A stretch of 64,000 bases of DNA from an uncultured delta proteobacterium (lineage in GTDB: Bacteria; Myxococcota_A; Polyangia; Polyangiales; B10-G4), in assembly GCA_963727445.1 (NCBI GenBank), contig CAVSGI010000013.1:288001-352000 (forward strand), written 5' to 3'. The notes below the pieces were generated by a model that saw only the letters and a list, made by a program, of their open reading frames with translations, was not told where the DNA came from and made no database searches. A program made the position numbers and the translations under genes. Of this stretch, positions 53,964 through 64,000 are shown piece by piece. The stretch's first letter is position 1. The number at the start of each line of letters is the position of its first letter.

Positions 53964-54305
53964 TTGAAGATCGTCATGTACGTCCTGGCCGTGTTGGTCG
54001 GCCTTCTCGGTTTGGTCTTCGTCGCGGGGAACCAGGGCGAGGTGCTGCGCATCGTGGTCGGCGCGGTGTTGATCGCCGCAGCGATCGCCATGGTGGTCGC
54101 GGCGCGCATGCGCCCGCAGGTCACACAGCGGAACATCGTCCAGCGCATCGACGTGGGCGGTGACGTCCGCCTCGAAGAGCTGAAGTGCCAGAAGTGCGGG
54201 GCGACGCTCTCGAAGGAGGCGGTGACGGTGCACGAGGGAGCTGTGATGGTCGCGTGCCCCTACTGCCAGGCCAGCTACCAGATGGAGGAGGCGCCGAAAT
54301 GGTGA
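53964..54305 (+). CDS. Small two-TM protein with C-terminal Zn ribbon
   Basis: Two hydrophobic helices; CQKC..CPYC; stop overlaps the next start. Confidence 0.75.
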   Translation: MKIVMYVLAVLVGLLGLVFVAGNQGEVLRIVVGAVLIAAAIAMVVAARMRPQVTQRNIVQRIDVGGDVRLEELKCQKCGATLSKEAVTVHEGAVMVACPYCQASYQMEEAPKW

Positions 54306-55897
54306 TGCTCTTTTCGAACGTGGCGCGCGCCATCCAGAAGGACGTGGGCGCCTTCTTCGGAGCGGTGCGCGGCGAAGACGAGGTCCCCATCCCGCGCGGG
54401 CTGAACACCTACCCGTTCACCGGAAATGGTGGGCAGACGCGGCTGCATCTCCGCGTTCAGGACGACGGAACCGGCCTGCTCTTTCGCGATGTCACCGACG
54501 TCATCCACCTGACCACCACCGCCACCGAGATGATCTGGATGGCCCTCGAGGGCTGGCCGCCGCGCCGGGCGCTCGGCGCGCTCTCGCGGCGCTACCGGGG
54601 CACGCGCGGGGACTTCGCGGCGGACTACGCGCGGATGCAGCGAGTGGTGCAGGTGTTGTCGACGCCCTCCGCCAGCTGTCACACCTGCGCCCTCGAGCTG
54701 CCGCAGGTGCCGCTCTTCAGCCAGCGCGCCCGCGCGCCGCACAAGGTCGACCTCGCGCTCACCTACGCCTGCAACAACCGCTGCCCGCACTGCTACAACG
54801 ACCCGGAGCGCTTCGACATGCGCGCGCTGCCGGTCGACGATTGGAAGCGCATCCTCGATCAGCTCGCGGAGGTCGGCGTCCCGCACGTGATCTTCACCGG
54901 CGGCGAAGCCACCGTCTACAAGGGCCTCGAAGAGCTCATCGCCCACGCCGACCAGGCGGGGATGATGACCGGGCTCAACTCCAACGGACGGCGCCTCCGC
55001 GATCGCGCGTACGTCGAACGGCTTCGCGACGCCGGCCTCGACCACGTGCAGATCACCCTCGAGAGCCACCACGCCGCGGTGCACGACGCCATGGTCGGCG
55101 CCCGCGCCTGGGAAGAATGCGTGGCCGGCGTGCGCGCCTGCGTCGAGACCGAGGGCCTCCACGTCATCACCAACACCACCATCACGCGCGTCAACGCCGC
55201 CGAGATCGGCGAGACGGTGGAGTTCCTGGGCGACCTGGGCCTGAGCACCTTCGCGATGAACGGGATGATCTACTCGGGCGGCGGCGACGCGAACCCCGAT
55301 GCCATCCCCCAGGACGCCCTGCCCTCGCTCCTGATCGAGGTCCGCGACACCGCCGAGGAGCGCGGGCTGCGGTTCCTCTGGTACACGGTCACCGAGTACT
55401 GCGAGATGAACCCGGTCGAGCTCGAGATCGGGGCCAAGCGCTGTAACGCAGGCGAGTACTCGATGTGCATCGAGCCGAACGGCGACGTGCTGCCCTGCCA
55501 GAGCTACTACATCTCCGCCGGGAACATGCTTCGAGATCCCTGGAGCGAGATCTGGCGCGGCGAGCTCTTCCGCTCCTTCCGCGACCGCGAGGACGATCCA
55601 GCGTGGGCGGGGCTCCCCGACAAGTGCCACACCTGCCCGGACCTGCCGCTCTGCGGCGGGGGCTGCCGCATCGAGCGCGAGTCTGCGGCGGGCGTGGCCC
55701 CGGGCGGCTGTCAGAGCTGCGCGAGCGGCGGACTCACGACGGGACGCGGGATCCGCTCGACAGGCGTCAGCGCCGCGAGCCACTGCACCTGCGGCGAAGG
55801 AGAGAGCGCCGGAGCCGGATGCGCGAGCGATGTGCACCGCGCACCGATGGGTCTCGTCACCCTGCGCATCCCGGAGCGGACGGAGGTCTCGCGATGA
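54299..55897 (+). CDS. Radical SAM/SPASM protein with N-terminal PqqD/RRE-like domain
   Basis: RBS GGAGGAG at 54284; CNNRCPHC, FTGGE, NSNG; SPASM CNAG..EPNGDVLPC..CHTCPDLPLCGGGC. Confidence 0.92.
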   Translation: MVMLFSNVARAIQKDVGAFFGAVRGEDEVPIPRGLNTYPFTGNGGQTRLHLRVQDDGTGLLFRDVTDVIHLTTTATEMIWMALEGWPPRRALGALSRRYRGTRGDFAADYARMQRVVQVLSTPSASCHTCALELPQVPLFSQRARAPHKVDLALTYACNNRCPHCYNDPERFDMRALPVDDWKRILDQLAEVGVPHVIFTGGEATVYKGLEELIAHADQAGMMTGLNSNGRRLRDRAYVERLRDAGLDHVQITLESHHAAVHDAMVGARAWEECVAGVRACVETEGLHVITNTTITRVNAAEIGETVEFLGDLGLSTFAMNGMIYSGGGDANPDAIPQDALPSLLIEVRDTAEERGLRFLWYTVTEYCEMNPVELEIGAKRCNAGEYSMCIEPNGDVLPCQSYYISAGNMLRDPWSEIWRGELFRSFRDREDDPAWAGLPDKCHTCPDLPLCGGGCRIERESAAGVAPGGCQSCASGGLTTGRGIRSTGVSAASHCTCGEGESAGAGCASDVHRAPMGLVTLRIPERTEVSR

Positions 55898-57126
55898 CCA
55901 GCCCCCTCACCCACTTCTCCCGCGAGCGCGACGGTCAGGTCGCGCGCTATCACCTGCGCGTCGATCCCGACGGCTCGGGGATCCTCCTCGCCAACGCTTC
56001 GGCCGCGCTTCGCCTCTCACAAACCGGCGTGATCATCGCCCGCGGGATCCTCGAAGGCGCGAGCCCCGGGCGCATCTCCAAGGACCTCGCGCGCAAGTTC
56101 GCGCACGTCGACCGATCGAAGGCGAGCCAGGACGTCGACCGCGTCGGCAAGGCGATCGACGACCTCGCCCGCCCGCGTGACGGGATCGCGCTGACCAGCC
56201 TCGACGACCCAGATGCCACGCTGCACCGGCGCGCGCTCTCGGCGCCGCTCTGCGCCGAGGTGGTCACGCCCTCGGCGGGTCGAGCGAAGGAGATCGTCCA
56301 CCGCCTCTGGGACATCGGCATTCCGCAGGTGCGCTTCGTGCTTCCCGTGGGCCACAACGCCGGCCATCTCGTTCACCTGGTAGAGGCGGCGGAGGACGTG
56401 GGGATGATCACCGGCGTGCGCGCGCGGGCGTCGGACCTGATGCCGGAGACCGTGGTCCGCGGCCTGGCCATGGCGGGGCTCGACCACCTCGACCTGCTCT
56501 GGAGCGGTGTCGACCCGCAGATGCACGAGGACCTCTTCGGCGAAGGGGACCTCGCGCATGCGGAGAGGCTCCTCGCGCTCTGTCACGACCTCGAGCTCTT
56601 CCCGATCGCCGTCATGCCGTTGCTCGGGGCGATCCTCGACGATCTCGACGACCTGGGTCGCGTCCTCGCGAAGCATCGCATCGAGGCGCTGGTGGCTTAT
56701 GCCATCACCGACGAGGACGGGCAGGGTCGCGCACTGTCGAGCATCGAGCTCCCACAGGTGGCGACCAGCCTCGAAGAGGTGGCCGAGCACGGCAACATCA
56801 ACCTCGTATGGGCGGCGCCGGAAGAGCGCGACCCGTCGATCACGCTGGTGGAGCAGGTCGCGGCCGGACCGCGCGCCGCGGGCGAGGCCTGCATCCGCAT
56901 CGAGGCCGACGGGCGGGTGATCGCGCCCAACGGGCCGGCGACGATGGCGGGCAACCTCTTCGACGATCCCTGGGAAAAGATCTGGCAGGCCCCGATCTTC
57001 CACCACTGGCGCACGTCGGTGGACGATCCGCCGCGGTGCACGATGTGCCCGGGGCTCGCCCTCTGCGCCGCCGGCTGCCCGAAAGACCGCGCGACCTGGG
57101 CCACCCTTTCTGGAGGTGAGAAGTGA
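55894..57126 (+). CDS. Degenerate radical-SAM-like paralog (RRE-like + TIM-like + partial SPASM; no CxxxCxxC)
   Basis: ATGA overlap; HLRVDPDGSGIL matches HLRVQDDGTGLL of the neighbour; ends CTMCPGLALCAAGCP. Confidence 0.8.
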   Translation: MTSPLTHFSRERDGQVARYHLRVDPDGSGILLANASAALRLSQTGVIIARGILEGASPGRISKDLARKFAHVDRSKASQDVDRVGKAIDDLARPRDGIALTSLDDPDATLHRRALSAPLCAEVVTPSAGRAKEIVHRLWDIGIPQVRFVLPVGHNAGHLVHLVEAAEDVGMITGVRARASDLMPETVVRGLAMAGLDHLDLLWSGVDPQMHEDLFGEGDLAHAERLLALCHDLELFPIAVMPLLGAILDDLDDLGRVLAKHRIEALVAYAITDEDGQGRALSSIELPQVATSLEEVAEHGNINLVWAAPEERDPSITLVEQVAAGPRAAGEACIRIEADGRVIAPNGPATMAGNLFDDPWEKIWQAPIFHHWRTSVDDPPRCTMCPGLALCAAGCPKDRATWATLSGGEK

Positions 57127-58991
57127 TGCGCCGCCTCTCGACTTGGGCCGCCCTCACGGCCGCGACGATCGTGCTCCTCTTCCCGGCGCTGGCGACGGCT
57201 CCTGCCGCTGCGCAGACCTATGCGTTCTCCGTCCCGCAGGTGACGATGGAGTGCAGGGTCAACACCGACGCCTCGGTGCGCATCCACTACATCATCGAGT
57301 TCGAGAACAGCTCCTACGGCTCGCCCATCGACGTGGTCGACGTGGGGCTTCCCCACGACGATTACCGAATCTCGAACATGCGGGCGTCCCTCGACGGCGT
57401 GGAGACGCACGCCATCGCACCCTCCACCTACATCGACACCGGCGTCGAAGTGCACATCGGCGCCGGGATCCCGGCCGGGGCCCGCGGCGTCTTCGAGTTC
57501 ACGACGACCATGCCGGATCTCGTATTCTCGGACACGACCGACGATGCGCTGGCGTCGATACGCATCACGCCCACCTGGTTCGATGGAGCCCTCGTCACCG
57601 GCGACACCGATCTGCGCATCGCCATCGAGCTGCCGCCGGGCGTGAACGCCGAAGAGGTCCTGAATCAGGGCACGCCGTTCTACAACAAGGCCGACCTCGA
57701 CGATCACGCGCTTGTCGGCTTCCGCTTCGAGCACACGCGCTTCACCGAGGCGCACATGGTCGGCATCTCCTTCCCGCGCCGAGTGATGAGCCGCGTGGTG
57801 GAGATCACCAAGTGGGACCTCCTCGTGAAGTGGTGGGAAGACAACCCGAAGGTCCGCGTCATCGCCGGCATCCTGATGCTGCTGGTGTCGCTCCTCTTCT
57901 TCATGCGCTTCACCGGCTTCACCGGCTGGTCGGTCTTCATCTTCCTCGCAGGCGTGGTGGGGGTGCTCTGCTACTTCGCGCCGTTGGTGCAGCTGGTTCT
58001 GATCCCGGTCATCCCGGTGGTCGGCGCGCTCCTCGAATGGCGCACGCAGCGGAGAAAACGGACGTACCTGCCGCCCATCGCCTCGGTGGAAGGCGGCGGG
58101 ATCAAGCGCGGGCTCACCGCGCCCGAGGCCGCGGTGCTCCTCGAGCTGCCCCTGGGCCGGGTGCTGACGCTGGTCGTCTTCGGGATGCTGCGGAAGCGCC
58201 TGTTGATCCAGCAGAACCTCAAGCCGCTCACCGTGAGCATCGTCCCTGCCATCGCCCAGGCCAAGAAGCACAAGGCGCGGCGGCGGGCGGCGGCTCAGGC
58301 CGGGCTGGTGATCCACGCCTATGAGCACGCCTTCCTCGACGCCATCGACGACAGCCGCGGCCTCTCGGTGAACGAGGTCGACTTCGGCGCGGCGATGAAG
58401 AAGCTCGTCGAGCACGTCGCGGAGCGCGTGCTCGGCTTCGACGTGGACCAGACGAAGAAGTACTACCGGTATCAGATCCAGCGCGCGTGGACCGAGGCCG
58501 AGGCCATCGGCGAGCTAGACATGCGCACCAAGAAGGTCGACGAGAAGCTCGAGTGGTTGCTCATGGACGACGACTACGACGACCGCTTCTCGAGTTGGGG
58601 GACGGGCGGCTACTGGTACCGGCCCACCTGGGGCTACGTCCACACGGGCGGCGGCGTCGATCTCGGCAGCGTCGCCGACGCAGCGGCGTCCGCCGGCGGG
58701 GGCGCCATCGACCACACGCAGACGAGCTTCGGCGACGTGGCGGCGGGCTTCGCCGGGTGGACCGAGCGCGTCACCGGCCAGCTCTCGAACGCCATCCGGC
58801 CGGGCGACGTGAACGCGGCGGCCGCCGGCGGCGTCATCGATCTCTCCGGCGCCGACAAGGTGACGGGCGAGGTCCTCGAAGCCTTCTTCTCCAACAGCGG
58901 CGGCGGTGGCGGAGGTGGCGGCGGCGGGGGCTGCGCGTGCGCCTGCGCCGGCTGCGCGTGCGCGTGCGCCTGTGCCGGCGGCGGCCGATGA
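57123..58991 (+). CDS. DUF2207-like membrane protein with C-terminal Gly10-(Cys-Ala)n tail
   Basis: Signal peptide; VNTDASVRIHYIIEFEN N-domain; three TM helices; LTAPEAAVLL; ends GGGGGGGGGGCACACAGCACACACAGGGR. Confidence 0.8.
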   Translation: MMRRLSTWAALTAATIVLLFPALATAPAAAQTYAFSVPQVTMECRVNTDASVRIHYIIEFENSSYGSPIDVVDVGLPHDDYRISNMRASLDGVETHAIAPSTYIDTGVEVHIGAGIPAGARGVFEFTTTMPDLVFSDTTDDALASIRITPTWFDGALVTGDTDLRIAIELPPGVNAEEVLNQGTPFYNKADLDDHALVGFRFEHTRFTEAHMVGISFPRRVMSRVVEITKWDLLVKWWEDNPKVRVIAGILMLLVSLLFFMRFTGFTGWSVFIFLAGVVGVLCYFAPLVQLVLIPVIPVVGALLEWRTQRRKRTYLPPIASVEGGGIKRGLTAPEAAVLLELPLGRVLTLVVFGMLRKRLLIQQNLKPLTVSIVPAIAQAKKHKARRRAAAQAGLVIHAYEHAFLDAIDDSRGLSVNEVDFGAAMKKLVEHVAERVLGFDVDQTKKYYRYQIQRAWTEAEAIGELDMRTKKVDEKLEWLLMDDDYDDRFSSWGTGGYWYRPTWGYVHTGGGVDLGSVADAAASAGGGAIDHTQTSFGDVAAGFAGWTERVTGQLSNAIRPGDVNAAAAGGVIDLSGADKVTGEVLEAFFSNSGGGGGGGGGGGCACACAGCACACACAGGGR

Positions 58992-59055: not shown

Positions 59056-59814
59056 ATGGCCGATATGAGCGAAGGCGCGCCGCCCAGCATCCCGCCAGAG
59101 TCGGTCCTTCGCGCCCAGGACGCGCTGATCGCGCCGATGCGCTCGCGCATCCTGCGGCGCATCGGCATCGGCCACCGCGGGCCCGTCCTCGACCTCGGCG
59201 CGGGGCCGGGGGTGGTGAGCGCGGAGCTGTTGCGGCGGAGCCGCGGTCCGGTGGTCGCCCTCGATCGCGATCCCATCGTGAAGAAGGCGCCCGCCGACGA
59301 GCGCGTCGTCGCCGACGCGACCGCCCTGCCCTTCGCCTCGGGCCGCTTCGCGCTCGTCTACGCGCAGTTCGTCTTTCTCTGGAACGACGCGGCGGCGCGA
59401 CGCCGCATCGCCGAGGAGATCGCTCGGGTGCTCTCACCGGACGGCGTGGTGGTGATCGTCGAGCCGGACTATCACGCCGCCATCGAGCACCCCCCCACCA
59501 TCGCCATCGCCCCGACCGCCGCCGCCGCCATCGCACGCGCGGGTGGGGTGCCCGACGTCGCCCGGCGCCTGCCGGCGGAGCTCTGTGAGGCGGGCCTGAC
59601 GGTGCGCATCGAGCAGAGCCCGGAGCTCGTCCCGCCCAATCCCGCGCGCTTCGCCGCGCTCGAAGGATTGCCGCTCACCGCCGAGGAGCAGGCGCGCATC
59701 GCGCAGGCGAAGAACGCTGACGCCGCGCTTCGCCCCGACGCCCGCTTCGCTCACGTACCGCTCTTCTTCTTCACTGCCGAGTCTGGGGCCTCGGGTCGAC
59801 GACGCGGCCCATGA
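59056..59814 (+). CDS. Class I SAM-dependent methyltransferase
   Basis: VLDLGAGPG, ADATALPF, RVLSPDG..VEPD. Confidence 0.85.
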   Translation: MADMSEGAPPSIPPESVLRAQDALIAPMRSRILRRIGIGHRGPVLDLGAGPGVVSAELLRRSRGPVVALDRDPIVKKAPADERVVADATALPFASGRFALVYAQFVFLWNDAAARRRIAEEIARVLSPDGVVVIVEPDYHAAIEHPPTIAIAPTAAAAIARAGGVPDVARRLPAELCEAGLTVRIEQSPELVPPNPARFAALEGLPLTAEEQARIAQAKNADAALRPDARFAHVPLFFFTAESGASGRRRGP

Positions 59815-61132
59815 AGAGGATCGTCCCCGAGCTCGGCTCGCGGATGGCGAAGAGGAAGGGGCGGTCGGCGCGGATCTCGATCGGCTCGGCGGGTCGCCCG
59901 CCGCCAAAGCCCATCGTGACCGCGGTGGCCGCGGCCGCCTCGGTCCCCTCTTCGTCCACCTTCACGAACACCTGGTGGTACGCCTCGCTCACATAGAGGC
60001 GCTCGTCGGGGTCGGCGGGGCGCCCGATGCCGAAGAAGTCGGCTGCGCCGTCGTCGAACGCGAGACGCATGCCGAGCGCCTTCAGGGCTGTGGAGAGGGT
60101 CATGCGGGTCGACATCTCGAAGCGCGGCATCACCAGGCGCACCCGGTCCTGTGAGAGAAGCCCGACCCATCGCTCGAACTGATCACCCGAGAGCTGGCCT
60201 TCGATGGCTGGCAGGCCCGTGGCCGAGTCGGGGATGATCAGCGTCATCACCAGCTCGTCGCCGCGGTAGGGCAGCTCGACCACCGTCACGTCGCCGCGAT
60301 GCGCGTGCTTCAGGTTCTCGGTCTGCCGCATCAGCGGCACCTCGATGGTCGAGCCATCGGCGAGAGTGAAGCGCTCGTCGCGAGTGAGCGCTGAATCGAA
60401 GGGCTCGGCCCACGCGCCCAGGAAATAGACGGCGTTGACCAGCACCAGGCCGGTGTCGGCGGTGATCGAAGTCGGGGGCAACAGATCGGTGATCCGCTCG
60501 CGTGTCTGTTGGGCGACCCATTCGTTGATGTGCTCGCGCTGCTCGTTCGGCGCGCCGTGGAAGTCCACGCCTTCGAAGGGCGCGGCGTAGGTGGTGCGCG
60601 TCAGCGTGAGGTAGTCCTGCTCGAAGCGAGCGCTCTGCTCGCCGAAGAGGCGATCCACGACGCGCAGCTCGTAATCCTCGCGGTTCGGATCGTTCCAGCG
60701 CGCGAGCACGCGGCCCGCGGCTTCGTGCACCGCGTCGGCGTCCCCAACGAGGCCCATGGTGCGCGCCATCTCCGCTGCGGTCTCACCCCGGGCGCCGCCG
60801 AAGACCATCTCGAAGGCGAGGGTGATGGAGGCCGGCGAGATCGCGAGATTGCCGTCGGCTCCGCGCGCCTGCCCGTAGATCGCGAAGCCGAAGGCGTTGC
60901 TGGTGCGAGCGAAGGCCGAGGCCTGCTCCGCCGTGGGCGGCTCCTGCTCGCGCGGCTCGGGGTTCGAGAAGAACGACTCCGGCGCTTCGTCGTTGCCGGC
61001 GCCCTCGCTTTCGGCCTCGGCCGTCTCCGGCGCTTCGGTGCTGATCTGCGGCGCGGACGGCTGCGTGACGGGCCCGTTCGTCCCGCACTTGCAGGCGCAG
61101 AGCGCCATCAAGACCACGAAGAATCGCCGCAT
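59771..61132 (-). CDS. Serpin (probable lipoprotein)
   Basis: ISPASI, INEWVAQQT, LVNAVYFLGAW, hinge EEGTEAAAAT, ADRPFLFAI..ILFMGRV. Confidence 0.92.
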   Translation of the reverse strand: MRRFFVVLMALCACKCGTNGPVTQPSAPQISTEAPETAEAESEGAGNDEAPESFFSNPEPREQEPPTAEQASAFARTSNAFGFAIYGQARGADGNLAISPASITLAFEMVFGGARGETAAEMARTMGLVGDADAVHEAAGRVLARWNDPNREDYELRVVDRLFGEQSARFEQDYLTLTRTTYAAPFEGVDFHGAPNEQREHINEWVAQQTRERITDLLPPTSITADTGLVLVNAVYFLGAWAEPFDSALTRDERFTLADGSTIEVPLMRQTENLKHAHRGDVTVVELPYRGDELVMTLIIPDSATGLPAIEGQLSGDQFERWVGLLSQDRVRLVMPRFEMSTRMTLSTALKALGMRLAFDDGAADFFGIGRPADPDERLYVSEAYHQVFVKVDEEGTEAAAATAVTMGFGGGRPAEPIEIRADRPFLFAIREPSSGTILFMGRVVDPRPQTRQ

Positions 61133-61143
61133 CGTCCCTCCGT

Positions 61144-62505
61144 TCAACGACTGACGTCGAAGGCCCTGGACGTCGAGATCCGGCGGCAGAGCCCGGGGGT
61201 GAACTCGCACGAAGAGACGGCGGCGGTCAATGCTCCCGGCACCAGGATGGCGTCGCGCGTCTCGATCGGCAGCTCCGGGAAGAGGCCGCGGGCGCGAGCC
61301 GCGCCCCAGTACTGGACGTACCAGCGCGGCGCAGTGTCCACCGCGTAGGTGACGCGCTGGATGGTGTCGGCTGCGGTCGATGTCCAGCGCACGCGCTCCG
61401 TCAACGCGATCCCGTCGGCGGTCGCGACGTCCAGCGTCGGCGGCGAGAGGAATTCGGCGTCGATCGGCGCGCTGGGCGGCCCGTCCCAATCGAGGACGAC
61501 GCTCGACTGACCGCCGCCGTCCGACTCGAGCTGCAGCGTGAGGAAGGACGCTTCGCCCGCCGGCGGATCGACGAGGCCTAGCCGGGCGGTGACCACGCCG
61601 GTGGCTTCGGTGTAGGTGGTCTCGAGAGGGAAGCCGACGGTGGCGCCGATCTGTCCGCGCGGCGTGACCGTGCTGAGCGCGGCGAGTGGTAGCGCGCTGT
61701 CGAAGAACGGCGTGCCGCTCGGCACCACGTAGGCGATGGTCCGCTCCGCGAGCGGGACGTCGGTGGAGAAGTCGAGGACCAGGTCCGTCGTCTCGTCTGC
61801 CGCTGGCGTCTCGAGGAAGGTCGCGTCCACCATCCACTGTCGGCCGCGCGCGCCGAAGGTCGCAGGCGAGAGCGCCCAGGCCCAACCGATCAACGTGGTG
61901 GAGGGCTGAGGCGACATGCGGATGGTCCAGGGGAGCGTGAGAAAGCCGCGGAACTGGAGCGCGTCGCCGTCGAGTGGCTCGACGAAGAGCGTGGACAGGC
62001 CCGCCGGTGCATTCACCACGGTGCCGGAGAGAGAGATGGTGGCGACGCGCTCGAGGGCGATCACCATCTGGGCCTCCTCGGCGGTGACGGGCCAGCCGCG
62101 ATCCTCGTGATGACGGATCACCTCGCGGTCGAAACCGACGTAGGTGGTCGCGATGTAGTCGGGATGGAAGGCGGTGAGCACCAGCTCACCCGCGTCGATG
62201 TCGACCCCATCGAAGGTCACCGCACCCCTGCGATTGGTCGTCGCGGACAGGAGCCCATCCGGGGTGTCGAGGAAGACCTGCGCGTCTTCGATCGGCACGA
62301 GGTCGGCGACGGGGCTGCTCACCACCACCACCGTGAACCGAAGCGGCGCCTGGGCGTCGGCGTCTTCATCGGCGGAGGCGGCGTCCGAAGCGGGGGTGGT
62401 GTCGGCCGTCGCGTCGGTGAGCGCCCCGCCATCGTCGCCACATCCGACCGTCACCGCCGCGGCGGCGAGGAGCAGGCGAAGCAAGCTCTCGGTCGTGAGA
62501 ATCAC
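61144..62505 (-). CDS. Hypothetical lipoprotein
   Basis: TVGC lipobox; PIEDAQVFL..TTNRRG carboxypeptidase-regulatory-like segment. Confidence 0.65.
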   Translation of the reverse strand: MILTTESLLRLLLAAAAVTVGCGDDGGALTDATADTTPASDAASADEDADAQAPLRFTVVVVSSPVADLVPIEDAQVFLDTPDGLLSATTNRRGAVTFDGVDIDAGELVLTAFHPDYIATTYVGFDREVIRHHEDRGWPVTAEEAQMVIALERVATISLSGTVVNAPAGLSTLFVEPLDGDALQFRGFLTLPWTIRMSPQPSTTLIGWAWALSPATFGARGRQWMVDATFLETPAADETTDLVLDFSTDVPLAERTIAYVVPSGTPFFDSALPLAALSTVTPRGQIGATVGFPLETTYTEATGVVTARLGLVDPPAGEASFLTLQLESDGGGQSSVVLDWDGPPSAPIDAEFLSPPTLDVATADGIALTERVRWTSTAADTIQRVTYAVDTAPRWYVQYWGAARARGLFPELPIETRDAILVPGALTAAVSSCEFTPGLCRRISTSRAFDVSR

Positions 62506-63197: not shown

Positions 63198-63320
63198 CCC
63201 CCCATCCTAGCTGAATTCGGGTCCCAGGCCCGTGCCCGGCCTCCGTCCCCAAATGAGGCCGCCGACCTGTCGCGCCCGCCTTGACAGCCCGCCGAGGCTG
63301 CATTAGTTGTTCGCGCCTCT

Positions 63321-63395
<75 letters not shown>

Positions 63396-64000
63396 CGAGA
63401 CTTCGCTTAGAGGGGTAGTGATTTCGGCTGGTTGGCGATTCGTCGACCGGCCGAAGTCGTATCTGGGATTTGAGCGTCGAGCCACGTTGACTATCCGGAT
63501 GACTATTTCGTCCGGGGACCGTGCGCCGAGGCGGGGAAGAGCAGCGCCGCGACTTGGTCGCCCGCCTGCCTCGCCTCGTCCGGGAGCAGCGTCGAGTAAT
63601 GCTCCCGCATCCTGTCGGTTGCGTGCCCCACGAGGGACTTCGCGACCACTGGATCCACCTTCGCGCGCCTCAGAAGGTCGGTCATCGACCGCCTGAGCCC
63701 GTGCGAGGTGATGCGCTGCGTGATGCCCGCGCGAGCGCGGGCGGCGGCGAGCGCATCCGAGATACGCGCCGAGCCGAGGGGCGTCCCGACCCTGGATGGG
63801 AACATCAGCCCGCTCGACAAGCCGGGATGCTGCTCGCGAACGAGCCGCGCCCGATGCTCGCGGAGGAGCTCGAGCAGCACGCCCGGCACGCCGACCCATC
63901 GCGCCTTACCCGACTTCGTCGACGGCACGAGCTCGCCCTTCACCACCTTGCGGCGGACCCAGAGCACCCGCTCCTCCTCGACGAGGTCCGCGAACATCAA
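63396..64000. mobile_element. Left end of a tRNA-Gly-integrated element (prophage, ICE or island)
   Basis: Integrase ends about 107 nt downstream of the tRNA CCA. Confidence 0.65.
63503..64000 (-). CDS. Tyrosine recombinase/integrase (C-terminal part)
   Basis: TKSG, HGLRR, LVGH, HY catalytic residues; converges on the tRNA 3' end. Confidence 0.9.
   Translation of the reverse strand: MMFADLVEEERVLWVRRKVVKGELVPSTKSGKARWVGVPGVLLELLREHRARLVREQHPGLSSGLMFPSRVGTPLGSARISDALAAARARAGITQRITSHGLRRSMTDLLRRAKVDPVVAKSLVGHATDRMREHYSTLLPDEARQAGDQVAALLFPASAHGPRTK

What the first reader, a model, noticed from the sequence alone, without database searches (positions are those of the whole stretch)
58899..58991. 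Gly10-CACACAGCACACACAGGGR C-terminal motif
Seen: seven Cys alternating with Ala behind a ten-Gly linker. Codons vary (TGC/TGT, GCG/GCC), so this is not a simple DNA slippage repeat. A signal peptide, three TM helices and RTQRRKR after TM3 predict a cytoplasmic tail, reachable by Fe-S enzymes. Known: DUF2207-like proteins often end in Gly-rich tails. Inference: this is a tethered core peptide for thioether formation or epimerisation, or a metal/Fe-S-binding tail.
Basis: partly seen in the sequence, partly recalled or inferred. Interest (0 to 1): 0.8.

Follow-up and report, generated by a model that had tools for sequence, protein, structure and literature searches.

The report
Radical-SAM-paired Cys-Ala membrane-protein tail
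A large bacterial membrane protein ends in an almost unchangeable cysteine-alanine repeat and is inherited together with a peptide-modifying radical-SAM enzyme, so the enzyme probably alters this tail while it stays attached to the protein, by a chemistry nobody has tested.

Summary
Real and strongly conserved. The 621-aa membrane protein (57126-58991) ends in Gly11 (not Gly10)-CACACAGCACACACAGGGR. Of its 120 best homologues, 120 end in CAGCACACACAGGG[R/V], down to 42% identity. In 301 sampled genomes of one phylum, the close enzyme orthologue occurs in exactly the 25 tail-positive genomes and in 0 of the other 276. More distant enzymes sit beside homologous carriers with a different (CHSA)n tail, and enzyme clades follow tail type. 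Best reading (0.7): the cytoplasmic tail is a tethered substrate whose cysteines are radically modified, by thioether links (about 0.4) or SbtM-like thiooxazoles (about 0.25). An unmodified metal-binding tail is less likely (0.15). Chemistry, binding and function are untested. The system works like CrpC/CrpA or QhpD/QhpC but meets no named family cut-off; nine literature searches found no description. This scan reported the same system before on other genomes (e1-1090200, e1-3186919).

The parts
53964..54305 (+). 113-aa protein: two hydrophobic helices, then a CxxC...CxxC zinc-ribbon-like domain ending EEAPKW; first gene of the cassette, overlaps the next start
   Evidence: (Zn-ribbon Pfams below cut-off); adjacent in 23 of 25 tail-positive genomes
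54299..55897 (+). Active-type RRE-radical SAM-SPASM enzyme, 532 aa: CxxxCxxC at 158/162/165, seven invariant SPASM-region Cys, variable Cys/Gly-rich C-terminal extension
55894..57126 (+). Pseudo-radical-SAM paralogue, 410 aa: RRE and barrel kept, CxxxCxxC loop deleted, only the CxxC-x5-C-x3-C motif retained
   Evidence: profile match over 399 columns, probability 100
57126..58991 (+). Tail-bearing membrane protein, 621 aa (GTG at 57123 is a possible alternative start); no Pfam/NCBIfam family
57126..57212 (+). Signal-peptide-like N-terminus ending AAA|Q (cleavage site inferred from the AxA-Q consensus)
   Evidence: sequence
57216..57791 (+). Predicted extracytoplasmic beta-sandwich (res. 31-222), ribophorin-I/Ost1- and M1-aminopeptidase-N-domain-like fold
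   Evidence: Z 14.9, rmsd 2.8, 179 aligned
57846..58055 (+). Three predicted membrane helices (res. 241-310) followed by RTQRRKR
58110..58778 (+). Predicted cytoplasmic domain (res. 329-551), GOLPH3/Vps74-like fold
   Evidence: (3kn1 Z 7.9, rmsd 3.7, 158 aligned; 2zih Z 6.4): middling scores
58833..58865 (+). VIDLSGADKVT, conserved pre-linker motif of subtype A; candidate leader-like recognition site (inference)
58899..58931 (+). Gly11 flexible linker (Gly/Ser-rich, variable length in homologues; low pLDDT)
58932..58991 (+). Invariant core CACACAGCACACACAGGGR and stop codon
59065..59814 (+). Class I SAM-dependent methyltransferase (ATG at 59056 or 59065)
   Evidence: Methyltransf_11 above cut-off; adjacent in 20 of 25 tail-positive genomes

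Best explanation
The tail is a tethered, RiPP-like core. Shown: the tail is invariant, and it travels with a dedicated RRE-rSAM/SPASM enzyme, usually also a pseudo-enzyme copy, a Zn-ribbon membrane protein and a methyltransferase. Inferred steps: (1) The carrier inserts with its beta-sandwich outside and its C-terminal domain, Gly linker and tail in the cytoplasm. (2) An RRE of the enzyme or of its pseudo-enzyme partner binds the subtype-specific motif before the linker. (3) The linker feeds the tail into the active enzyme, where an auxiliary Fe-S cluster with an open site binds a tail cysteine and the 5'-deoxyadenosyl radical removes a hydrogen. (4) Several cysteines are converted. Most likely these become thioether links to neighbouring Ala/Gly carbons (about 0.4 absolute); next most likely, SbtM-like thiooxazoles with the preceding residue (about 0.25). 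(5) The methyltransferase may tailor the product. The tail probably stays on the protein, as a rigid or metal-chelating cytoplasmic end of a sensor- or scaffold-like membrane protein; that role is a guess.
For: Conservation: 120 of 120 best homologues; 121 of 150 50%-identity representatives and 103 of the 111 that are at least 480 aa. Co-occurrence in the same 301 genomes: tail pattern in 25; close rSAM orthologue (E<1e-100) in exactly those 25; carrier profile in those 25 plus one CHSA-tailed genome, with no tail-less carrier found. Adjacent among the 25: rSAM 24, Zn-ribbon 23, pseudo-enzyme 22, methyltransferase 20. Where the operon is split, the enzyme was elsewhere in 4 of 5 genomes tested. 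Weaker rSAM hits sit next to a homologous carrier with a (CHSA)n tail: 2 of 2 and 7 of 9. Enzymes of subtype A (15), B (47) and CHSA (9) form three clean clades, support at least 0.995, and A and CHSA each span both phyla sampled. The pre-linker motif follows subtype: [DN]L.G.D in 139 of 155 A and 0 of 57 B; TNP-like in 53 of 57 B and 1 of 155 A. The enzyme's closest structures are RiPP maturases, aligned through the RRE: SkfB Z 28.4 and SuiB Z 26.8. Seven SPASM-region Cys are invariant in 71 of 71 enzymes; CrpC also has seven, read by its authors as leaving an open site. Precedent for rSAM thioethers on whole proteins, including an ACAGM motif: PMC13692751.
Against: No biochemical data, and co-inheritance shows a functional link, not a substrate. 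Kin are not independent, and a cassette moved whole would give the same tree. The tail has none of the Asp/Glu acceptors used by QhpD. An eighth Cys (C390) is present in 54 of 62 A+B enzymes and a linker Cys (C127) in 55 of 62, so the open site is not certain. The enzyme reaches no named family cut-off among the 25 best NCBIfam hits, which include PqqE and heme-b synthase models. In split operons the active enzyme stayed beside the Zn-ribbon gene, not the tailed gene (2 of 2 examined). One tail-positive genome of four in the window's own phylum had no strong enzyme hit (its contig ends in the pseudo-enzyme gene), nor did one of five. One metagenome locus of 27 with long flanks had the carrier alone. 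Related TIGR04222 tails are predicted to be periplasmic (PMC12452194).
Confidence: 0.7

Rival explanations
1. The tail stays unmodified and binds metal ions or Fe-S clusters through thiols displayed on one face of an extended strand or hairpin. The rSAM pair serves another step, or loads clusters.
For: Six to eight Cys are kept in strict alternation, while Cys makes up only 0.28% of the rest of the protein. The sister tail adds His and Asp, which are metal ligands. The partner protein has a CxxC..CxxC ribbon.
Against: It does not explain why Ala and the GGGR end are invariant, nor why an RRE-bearing enzyme clade switches together with tail type and pre-linker motif. No tail-less carrier and no enzyme-less tail genome among the 301.
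Confidence: 0.15
2. The enzyme acts on something else (the Zn-ribbon protein or a small molecule), and the tail is a docking site or sacrificial sulfur donor.
For: The Zn-ribbon gene stays with the active enzyme when the operon splits. It carries an IDL[S/P]G stretch resembling the subtype-A pre-linker motif, and a conserved EEPKW end. Heme-b synthase and NirJ models are among the enzyme's top NCBIfam hits, all far below cut-off.
Against: The Zn-ribbon C-terminus looks alike in subtypes A and B, whereas the tail and its pre-linker motif differ with the enzyme clade. The N-terminal RRE aligns with peptide maturases. No conserved small-peptide gene appeared in the neighbour clusters (ORFs under 80 aa were not clustered).
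Confidence: 0.09
3. The enzyme epimerises every second residue, giving an alternating L/D tail.
For: The strict two-residue periodicity; alternating L/D peptides made by rSAM epimerases are recalled (proteusins), not from a call.
Against: The epimerase EpeE/YydG ranks well below thioether and C-C maturases (Z 18.2 versus 28.4; E 1e-4). Epimerisation does not need invariant Cys. The sister tail has four-residue periodicity with a related enzyme.
Confidence: 0.06

Closest known systems
CrpC/CrpA of Methanococcus voltae (TIGR04463; PMC13692751)
   Same: An RRE-rSAM/SPASM enzyme with seven SPASM Cys sits beside a Cys-rich protein and installs thioether links on a whole protein; one modified motif is ACAGM.
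   Different: CrpA is a 28.8-kDa protein with an N-terminal leader-like region and 17-residue repeats with C-x-x-Q/D. Here the substrate candidate is the last 19 residues of a 621-aa membrane protein, with a pseudo-enzyme, a Zn-ribbon protein and a methyltransferase. The enzyme was not among the genome's matches to TIGR04463, none of which reached cut-off.
QhpD/QhpC (quinohemoprotein amine dehydrogenase gamma subunit)
   Same: An RRE-bearing rSAM cross-links Cys in a protein that is not a released natural product (as summarised in PMC13692751).
   Different: Its acceptors are Asp and Glu, absent from this tail; the leader is N-terminal; no membrane carrier.
Sactipeptide/ranthipeptide and related maturases (SkfB, SuiB, CteB)
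   Same: Best structural and sequence matches of the enzyme, RRE included.
   Different: About 20% identity; no short precursor gene, and no conserved protease or exporter in the neighbour clusters.
SbtM thio(seleno)oxazole-forming rSAM (TIGR04082; PMC9204691)
   Same: An rSAM/SPASM enzyme that oxidises Cys and cyclises it on the preceding small residue (Gly-Cys, -4 Da). Here the residue before Cys is Ala/Gly/Ser in 1709 of 1716 cases, and Ala in 158 of 163 in the CHSA tails.
   Different: 33.5 bits against a cut-off of 350; SbtM acts on a short (seleno)peptide.
TIGR04222 / DUF2207 membrane proteins with low-complexity tails (PMC12452194)
   Same: Distant relatives: sub-threshold TIGR04222 hits in 6 of 48 homologues and DUF2207_C in 2 of 48; a CHSA-tailed sister passes the DUF2207 cut-off; nearest named Atlas clusters are DUF2207. 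TIGR04222 tails are Ser/Gly-rich with Cys and are proposed substrates of a modifying enzyme.
   Different: Those tails are variable, predicted periplasmic and paired with MNIO enzymes; this one is invariant, predicted cytoplasmic and paired with an rSAM.

Membership tests
RRE-containing radical SAM/SPASM maturase (gene 54299-55897) | CxxxCxxC motif and Radical_SAM domain | tested here: met
   PF04055 92.4 bits versus cut-off 29.5; motif in 71 of 71 enzymes in the tree
RRE-containing radical SAM/SPASM maturase (gene 54299-55897) | SPASM domain with auxiliary-cluster cysteines | tested here: met
   PF13186 47.8 bits versus 21.5; seven invariant Cys
RRE-containing radical SAM/SPASM maturase (gene 54299-55897) | N-terminal RRE (PqqD-like) fold | tested here: met
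   Model has strands then three helices at the N-terminus, pLDDT above 80; SkfB and SuiB align from model residues 18 and 9; profile hits TfuB1 at E 1.6e-4. No PqqD Pfam hit on this protein itself
RRE-containing radical SAM/SPASM maturase (gene 54299-55897) | SAM cleavage and modification of a peptide or protein substrate | not testable with these tools
   needs reconstituted enzyme
Sactipeptide / ranthipeptide | Short ribosomal precursor with N-terminal leader and released core | tested here: not met
   In metagenome loci 58 of 62 complete tail-bearing frames are at least 380 aa; the four shorter ones were not examined further. No conserved protease among neighbours
Sactipeptide / ranthipeptide | Cys-S to carbon thioether installed by the rSAM | not testable with these tools
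   needs MS and alkylation counts
CrpC family (TIGR04463) | Score above the curated cut-off of 525 bits | tested here: not met
   best match in the genome 61 bits, and not this gene
SbtM family (TIGR04082) | Score above the curated cut-off of 350 bits | tested here: not met
   33.5 bits
DUF2207 (PF09972/PF20990) | Pfam score above gathering cut-off | tested here: not met
   no hit for the window protein; 2 of 48 homologues hit DUF2207_C below cut-off
DUF2207 (PF09972/PF20990) | Distant kinship: signal peptide, outer beta domain, membrane segment, inner domain, Gly-rich end | tested here: inconclusive
   Atlas feature scores 0.93-0.95 to DUF2207 clusters; sister protein passes PF09972 narrowly, 25.5 versus 24.4
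TIGR04222 / MNIO system | TIGR04222 score above 43 bits | tested here: not met
   no hit for the window protein; 16.8-27.5 bits in 6 of 48 homologues
TIGR04222 / MNIO system | Neighbouring MNIO gene | tested here: inconclusive
   no such recurring neighbour recognised in the clusters; no MNIO profile was run
TIGR04347 pseudo-SAM/SPASM (gene 55894-57126) | Score above 525 bits | tested here: not met
   25.7 bits; it is instead a full-length paralogue of the neighbouring enzyme
Metallothionein-like metal-binding tail | Free thiols with stoichiometric bound metal | not testable with these tools
   needs metal analysis

The most novel reading that the evidence does not exclude
An enzyme/pseudo-enzyme radical-SAM pair converts the (Ala-Cys)n tail into a regular chain of Ala-thiooxazole (or minimal thioether) units, further methylated. 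The product is a permanently membrane-tethered cytoplasmic metal chelator or switch on a receptor-like protein. It would be one branch of a wider design in which DUF2207/TIGR04222-type membrane proteins carry interchangeable Cys-repeat tails ((CA)n, (CHSA)n, Ser/Gly-Cys), each with its own modifying enzyme (rSAM or MNIO).
Probability: 0.2. Interest if true: 0.9.

Novelty: new variant of a known kind. Interest (0 to 1): 0.72.

Why it matters
RiPP-type radical chemistry on whole proteins has only a few worked-out cases. This would extend it to the tail of an integral membrane protein. The core holds only Cys, Ala, Gly and Arg, so it must use uncommon acceptors or another Cys reaction. The system also has a conserved pseudo-enzyme partner. 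It is common in some uncultured lineages (25 of 301 sampled genomes of one phylum). Source names among homologues include Deltaproteobacteria, Anaerolineae, Armatimonadota, Pirellulales and an archaeon. It is easy to test: a 19-residue core, a candidate recognition motif and one enzyme, with the (CHSA)n system as a ready specificity control.

Tried and rejected
Complex prediction of enzyme + pseudo-enzyme + carrier residues 528-621: no verdict (score 0.01, mark 0.32); not used either way. Promoter/terminator scan: nothing informative. In one search my rSAM query was in the wrong frame (54300); corrected to 54299, whose output was partly cut, as was that. DNA slippage: rejected. Free-standing short precursor with this core: not seen; the one viral-contig match is a carrier fragment with a shortened tail. 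P0122, an apparent pseudo-enzyme-carrier fusion, was rejected as evidence: one sequence, enzyme part cut before its SPASM Cys, signal peptide left inside. Foldseek matches to M1 aminopeptidases cover only the non-catalytic beta-sandwich, so no peptidase function is claimed. Literature searches without a description of this system: motif; one listed hit, an unrelated mouse-liver paper, not opened; no papers; listings, none on this system by title or abstract; led to the MNIO and SbtM papers. The library lacks most subscription journals. Rows dropped before counts: 42 of 218 proteins without the anchor motif; duplicate loci L065 and L097; short or broken enzymes left out of alignment A2 and the tree; two of nine intermediate enzyme hits had no readable CHSA carrier (L212 none seen; L215 repeat visible only off-frame at a contig end).

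Full report
Observation. The stretch 58899-58991 encodes Gly11-CACACAGCACACACAGGGR-stop, the end of a 621-aa protein starting at 57126. The motif is unique in the 9.47-Mb genome. A reversed control pattern found nothing in 552 genomes.

Conservation. A homologue search found 885 proteins among 8000 scored candidates and listed 120. All 120, down to 42% identity, end in CAGCACACACAGGG[R/V]: 88 with the full window tail, 29 with one CA fewer, 2 ending in V, 1 with two CA fewer. Among the 150 best 50%-identity representatives, 121 carry the tail, as do 103 of the 111 that are at least 480 aa. Of the 8 long misses, one has a Cys-Asp variant, one a shortened tail, and the others look truncated or frameshifted by eye. 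Two main subtypes exist: A, with four CA after the Gly hinge, and B, with three; a few have an uninterrupted run. Each has its own motif before the linker. Codons vary freely while residues do not.

Anatomy of the carrier. The AlphaFold model (148-row alignment, mean pLDDT 87) shows a beta-sandwich, three helices at 241-310, a helical/winged domain and a disordered linker. The sandwich resembles ribophorin I/Ost1 (Z 14.9). The inner domain resembles GOLPH3/Vps74 only moderately (Z 7.9 and 6.4). Subtype A has a median of 62 hydrophobic residues in the membrane region (136 proteins) and subtype B 30 (37 proteins), which I read as three helices versus one. Both are odd, and the following 12 residues are net positive in 107 of 136 and 36 of 37. 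With a signal peptide in front, this puts the tail in the cytoplasm; that is inference from a crude hydropathy scan. The protein matches no Pfam or NCBIfam family and is only a distant relative of DUF2207 and TIGR04222.

The cassette. The window has five same-strand genes, the first four with overlapping stop and start codons: a Zn-ribbon membrane protein, an RRE-rSAM/SPASM enzyme, a pseudo-enzyme, the carrier and a methyltransferase. The pseudo-enzyme is a full-length paralogue whose CxxxCxxC loop is deleted. Subtype A copies keep the last four-Cys motif (23-24 of 24); the subtype B counterparts lack these cysteines (25 of 26). Subtype B uses the order Zn-ribbon, carrier, enzyme, pseudo-enzyme, methyltransferase. 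In 19 genome loci the pseudo-enzyme was adjacent in 17, the other two being short contigs. Of five genomes where the active enzyme was not adjacent, four had it elsewhere. In 27 metagenome loci with long flanks, an enzyme-family gene was present in 26, the Zn-ribbon gene in 24 and the methyltransferase in 17.

Genome-level test. In one sample of 301 genomes from the phylum of G001, the tail pattern occurred in 25. The close enzyme orthologue (E below 1e-100) occurred in the same 25 and in none of the other 276 (only up to five candidates per genome were scored). The carrier profile hit those 25 plus G555. Around the 25 tails: enzyme 24, Zn-ribbon 23, pseudo-enzyme 22, methyltransferase 20 (the Zn-ribbon and methyltransferase profiles were built from this system's own loci). 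In 251 genomes of the window's own phylum the tail occurred in 4 and a strong enzyme hit in 3 of these; the fourth contig ends inside the pseudo-enzyme gene. Kin are not independent, so I give no statistic.

The exceptions are informative. Both 33%-identity enzyme hits that I opened lie beside a homologous carrier ending in CHSA/CVHDA repeats, as do 7 of 9 intermediate hits. G270 holds both systems. A FastTree tree of 71 enzymes separates A (15), B (47) and CHSA (9) completely. A and CHSA each include genomes of both phyla, so the clades follow tail type rather than host; transfer of whole cassettes would give the same picture.

Mechanism. The enzyme's nearest structures are RiPP maturases, aligned through the RRE. 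Seven SPASM-region cysteines are invariant across all three clades and the usual distal cysteine is missing in most. That suggests an open iron site for a substrate thiol, as proposed for CrpC and SbtM, although C390 or C127 could fill it. This favours Cys-directed chemistry over epimerisation. Thioether formation has the closest precedent on a whole protein (CrpA, with a modified ACAGM motif). Thiooxazole formation is a serious alternative: the one feature both tail classes share is a small residue before nearly every Cys (the (CA)n set of 252 includes near-duplicates), and the related TIGR04222 tails pair with MNIO enzymes, some of which make thiooxazoles. I put the tail as substrate of Cys-directed chemistry at 0.7 (thioether 0.4, thiooxazole-type 0.25, other 0.05), unmodified metal binding at 0.15, another substrate at 0.09 and epimerisation at 0.06. 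No step of the chemistry, binding or physiological role was shown.

Papers seen. PMC13692751: abstract, Introduction, two Results sections and Discussion, plus a term search of three supplementary files that found no CHSAC, DUF2207 or Anaerolineae; the two CACAC hits shown of nine were nucleotide text. Its figures and any supplement not held were not seen, and its Data set 1 of homologues might list such loci. PMC12452194: abstract and passages. PMC9204691 and PMC11002830: passages. PMC10457818: abstract only; a DUF2207 protein aids stress tolerance in Streptococcus mutans. Nine searches found no description of this system. Proteusin epimerases and the positive-inside rule are recalled, not from a call.

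Verdict. A real, undescribed variant of rSAM protein modification, not a member of any named family tested. Earlier notes of this scan describe the same system and the CHSA sister on other genomes; they are not counted as support. Interest 0.72.

Noticed in passing
L164:5950-10808, L165:983-5794, L207-L214: Sister system: homologous carrier with a (CHSA)n/CVHDA tail beside a related RRE-rSAM/SPASM; in L164/L165 followed by a coiled-coil protein and a membrane Zn-ribbon protein; no pseudo-enzyme seen.
   Followed up: partly
window 53964-54305 and homologues: The Zn-ribbon protein has an IDL[S/P]G stretch just before its first CxxC, resembling the subtype-A pre-linker DLSG of the carrier; may be chance.
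   Followed up: no
L034, L040, L043, L064, L096: Two tandem carrier paralogues, both with the tail, in some subtype-A operons; the first copy often lacks the DLSG motif.
   Followed up: no
L008-L015, L018, L171, L172: Split operons: pseudo-enzyme plus carrier at one place, Zn-ribbon plus active enzyme at another.
   Followed up: partly
window 55709-55897 (enzyme residues 471-532): Subtype-A enzymes often carry a variable Cys/Gly-rich C-terminal extension starting with a GCxxC-like motif.
   Followed up: no
L051, L060, L087: Tails without the Gly hinge (uninterrupted CA run) go with one enzyme subclade that also lacks the linker cysteine C127.
   Followed up: partly
model of window 57126-58988, residues 619-621: Confidence rises again at the extreme C-terminus and a beta-bridge is assigned, so the GGR end may dock on the protein's own domain.
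   Followed up: no
P0122: Single sequence fusing a truncated pseudo-enzyme to a complete carrier; probably an assembly or frameshift artefact.
   Followed up: partly
P0212, P0236, P0252: Divergent carriers, one named as a Ca. Ranarchaeia archaeon, have a CVSC hinge instead of CAGC.
   Followed up: partly
window 59771-61885 (-): A serpin gene (PF00079, 355 bits) converges on the end of the cassette; not a recurring neighbour.
   Followed up: no
window about 63300-64000: ORF translations suggest a tRNA-Gly-like sequence next to a tyrosine-recombinase-like fragment (recalled motifs; no tool run).
   Followed up: no
L154:265-297 (oriented): One IMG/VR contig begins with the end of a carrier gene bearing a shortened tail; probably flanking host DNA.
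   Followed up: no
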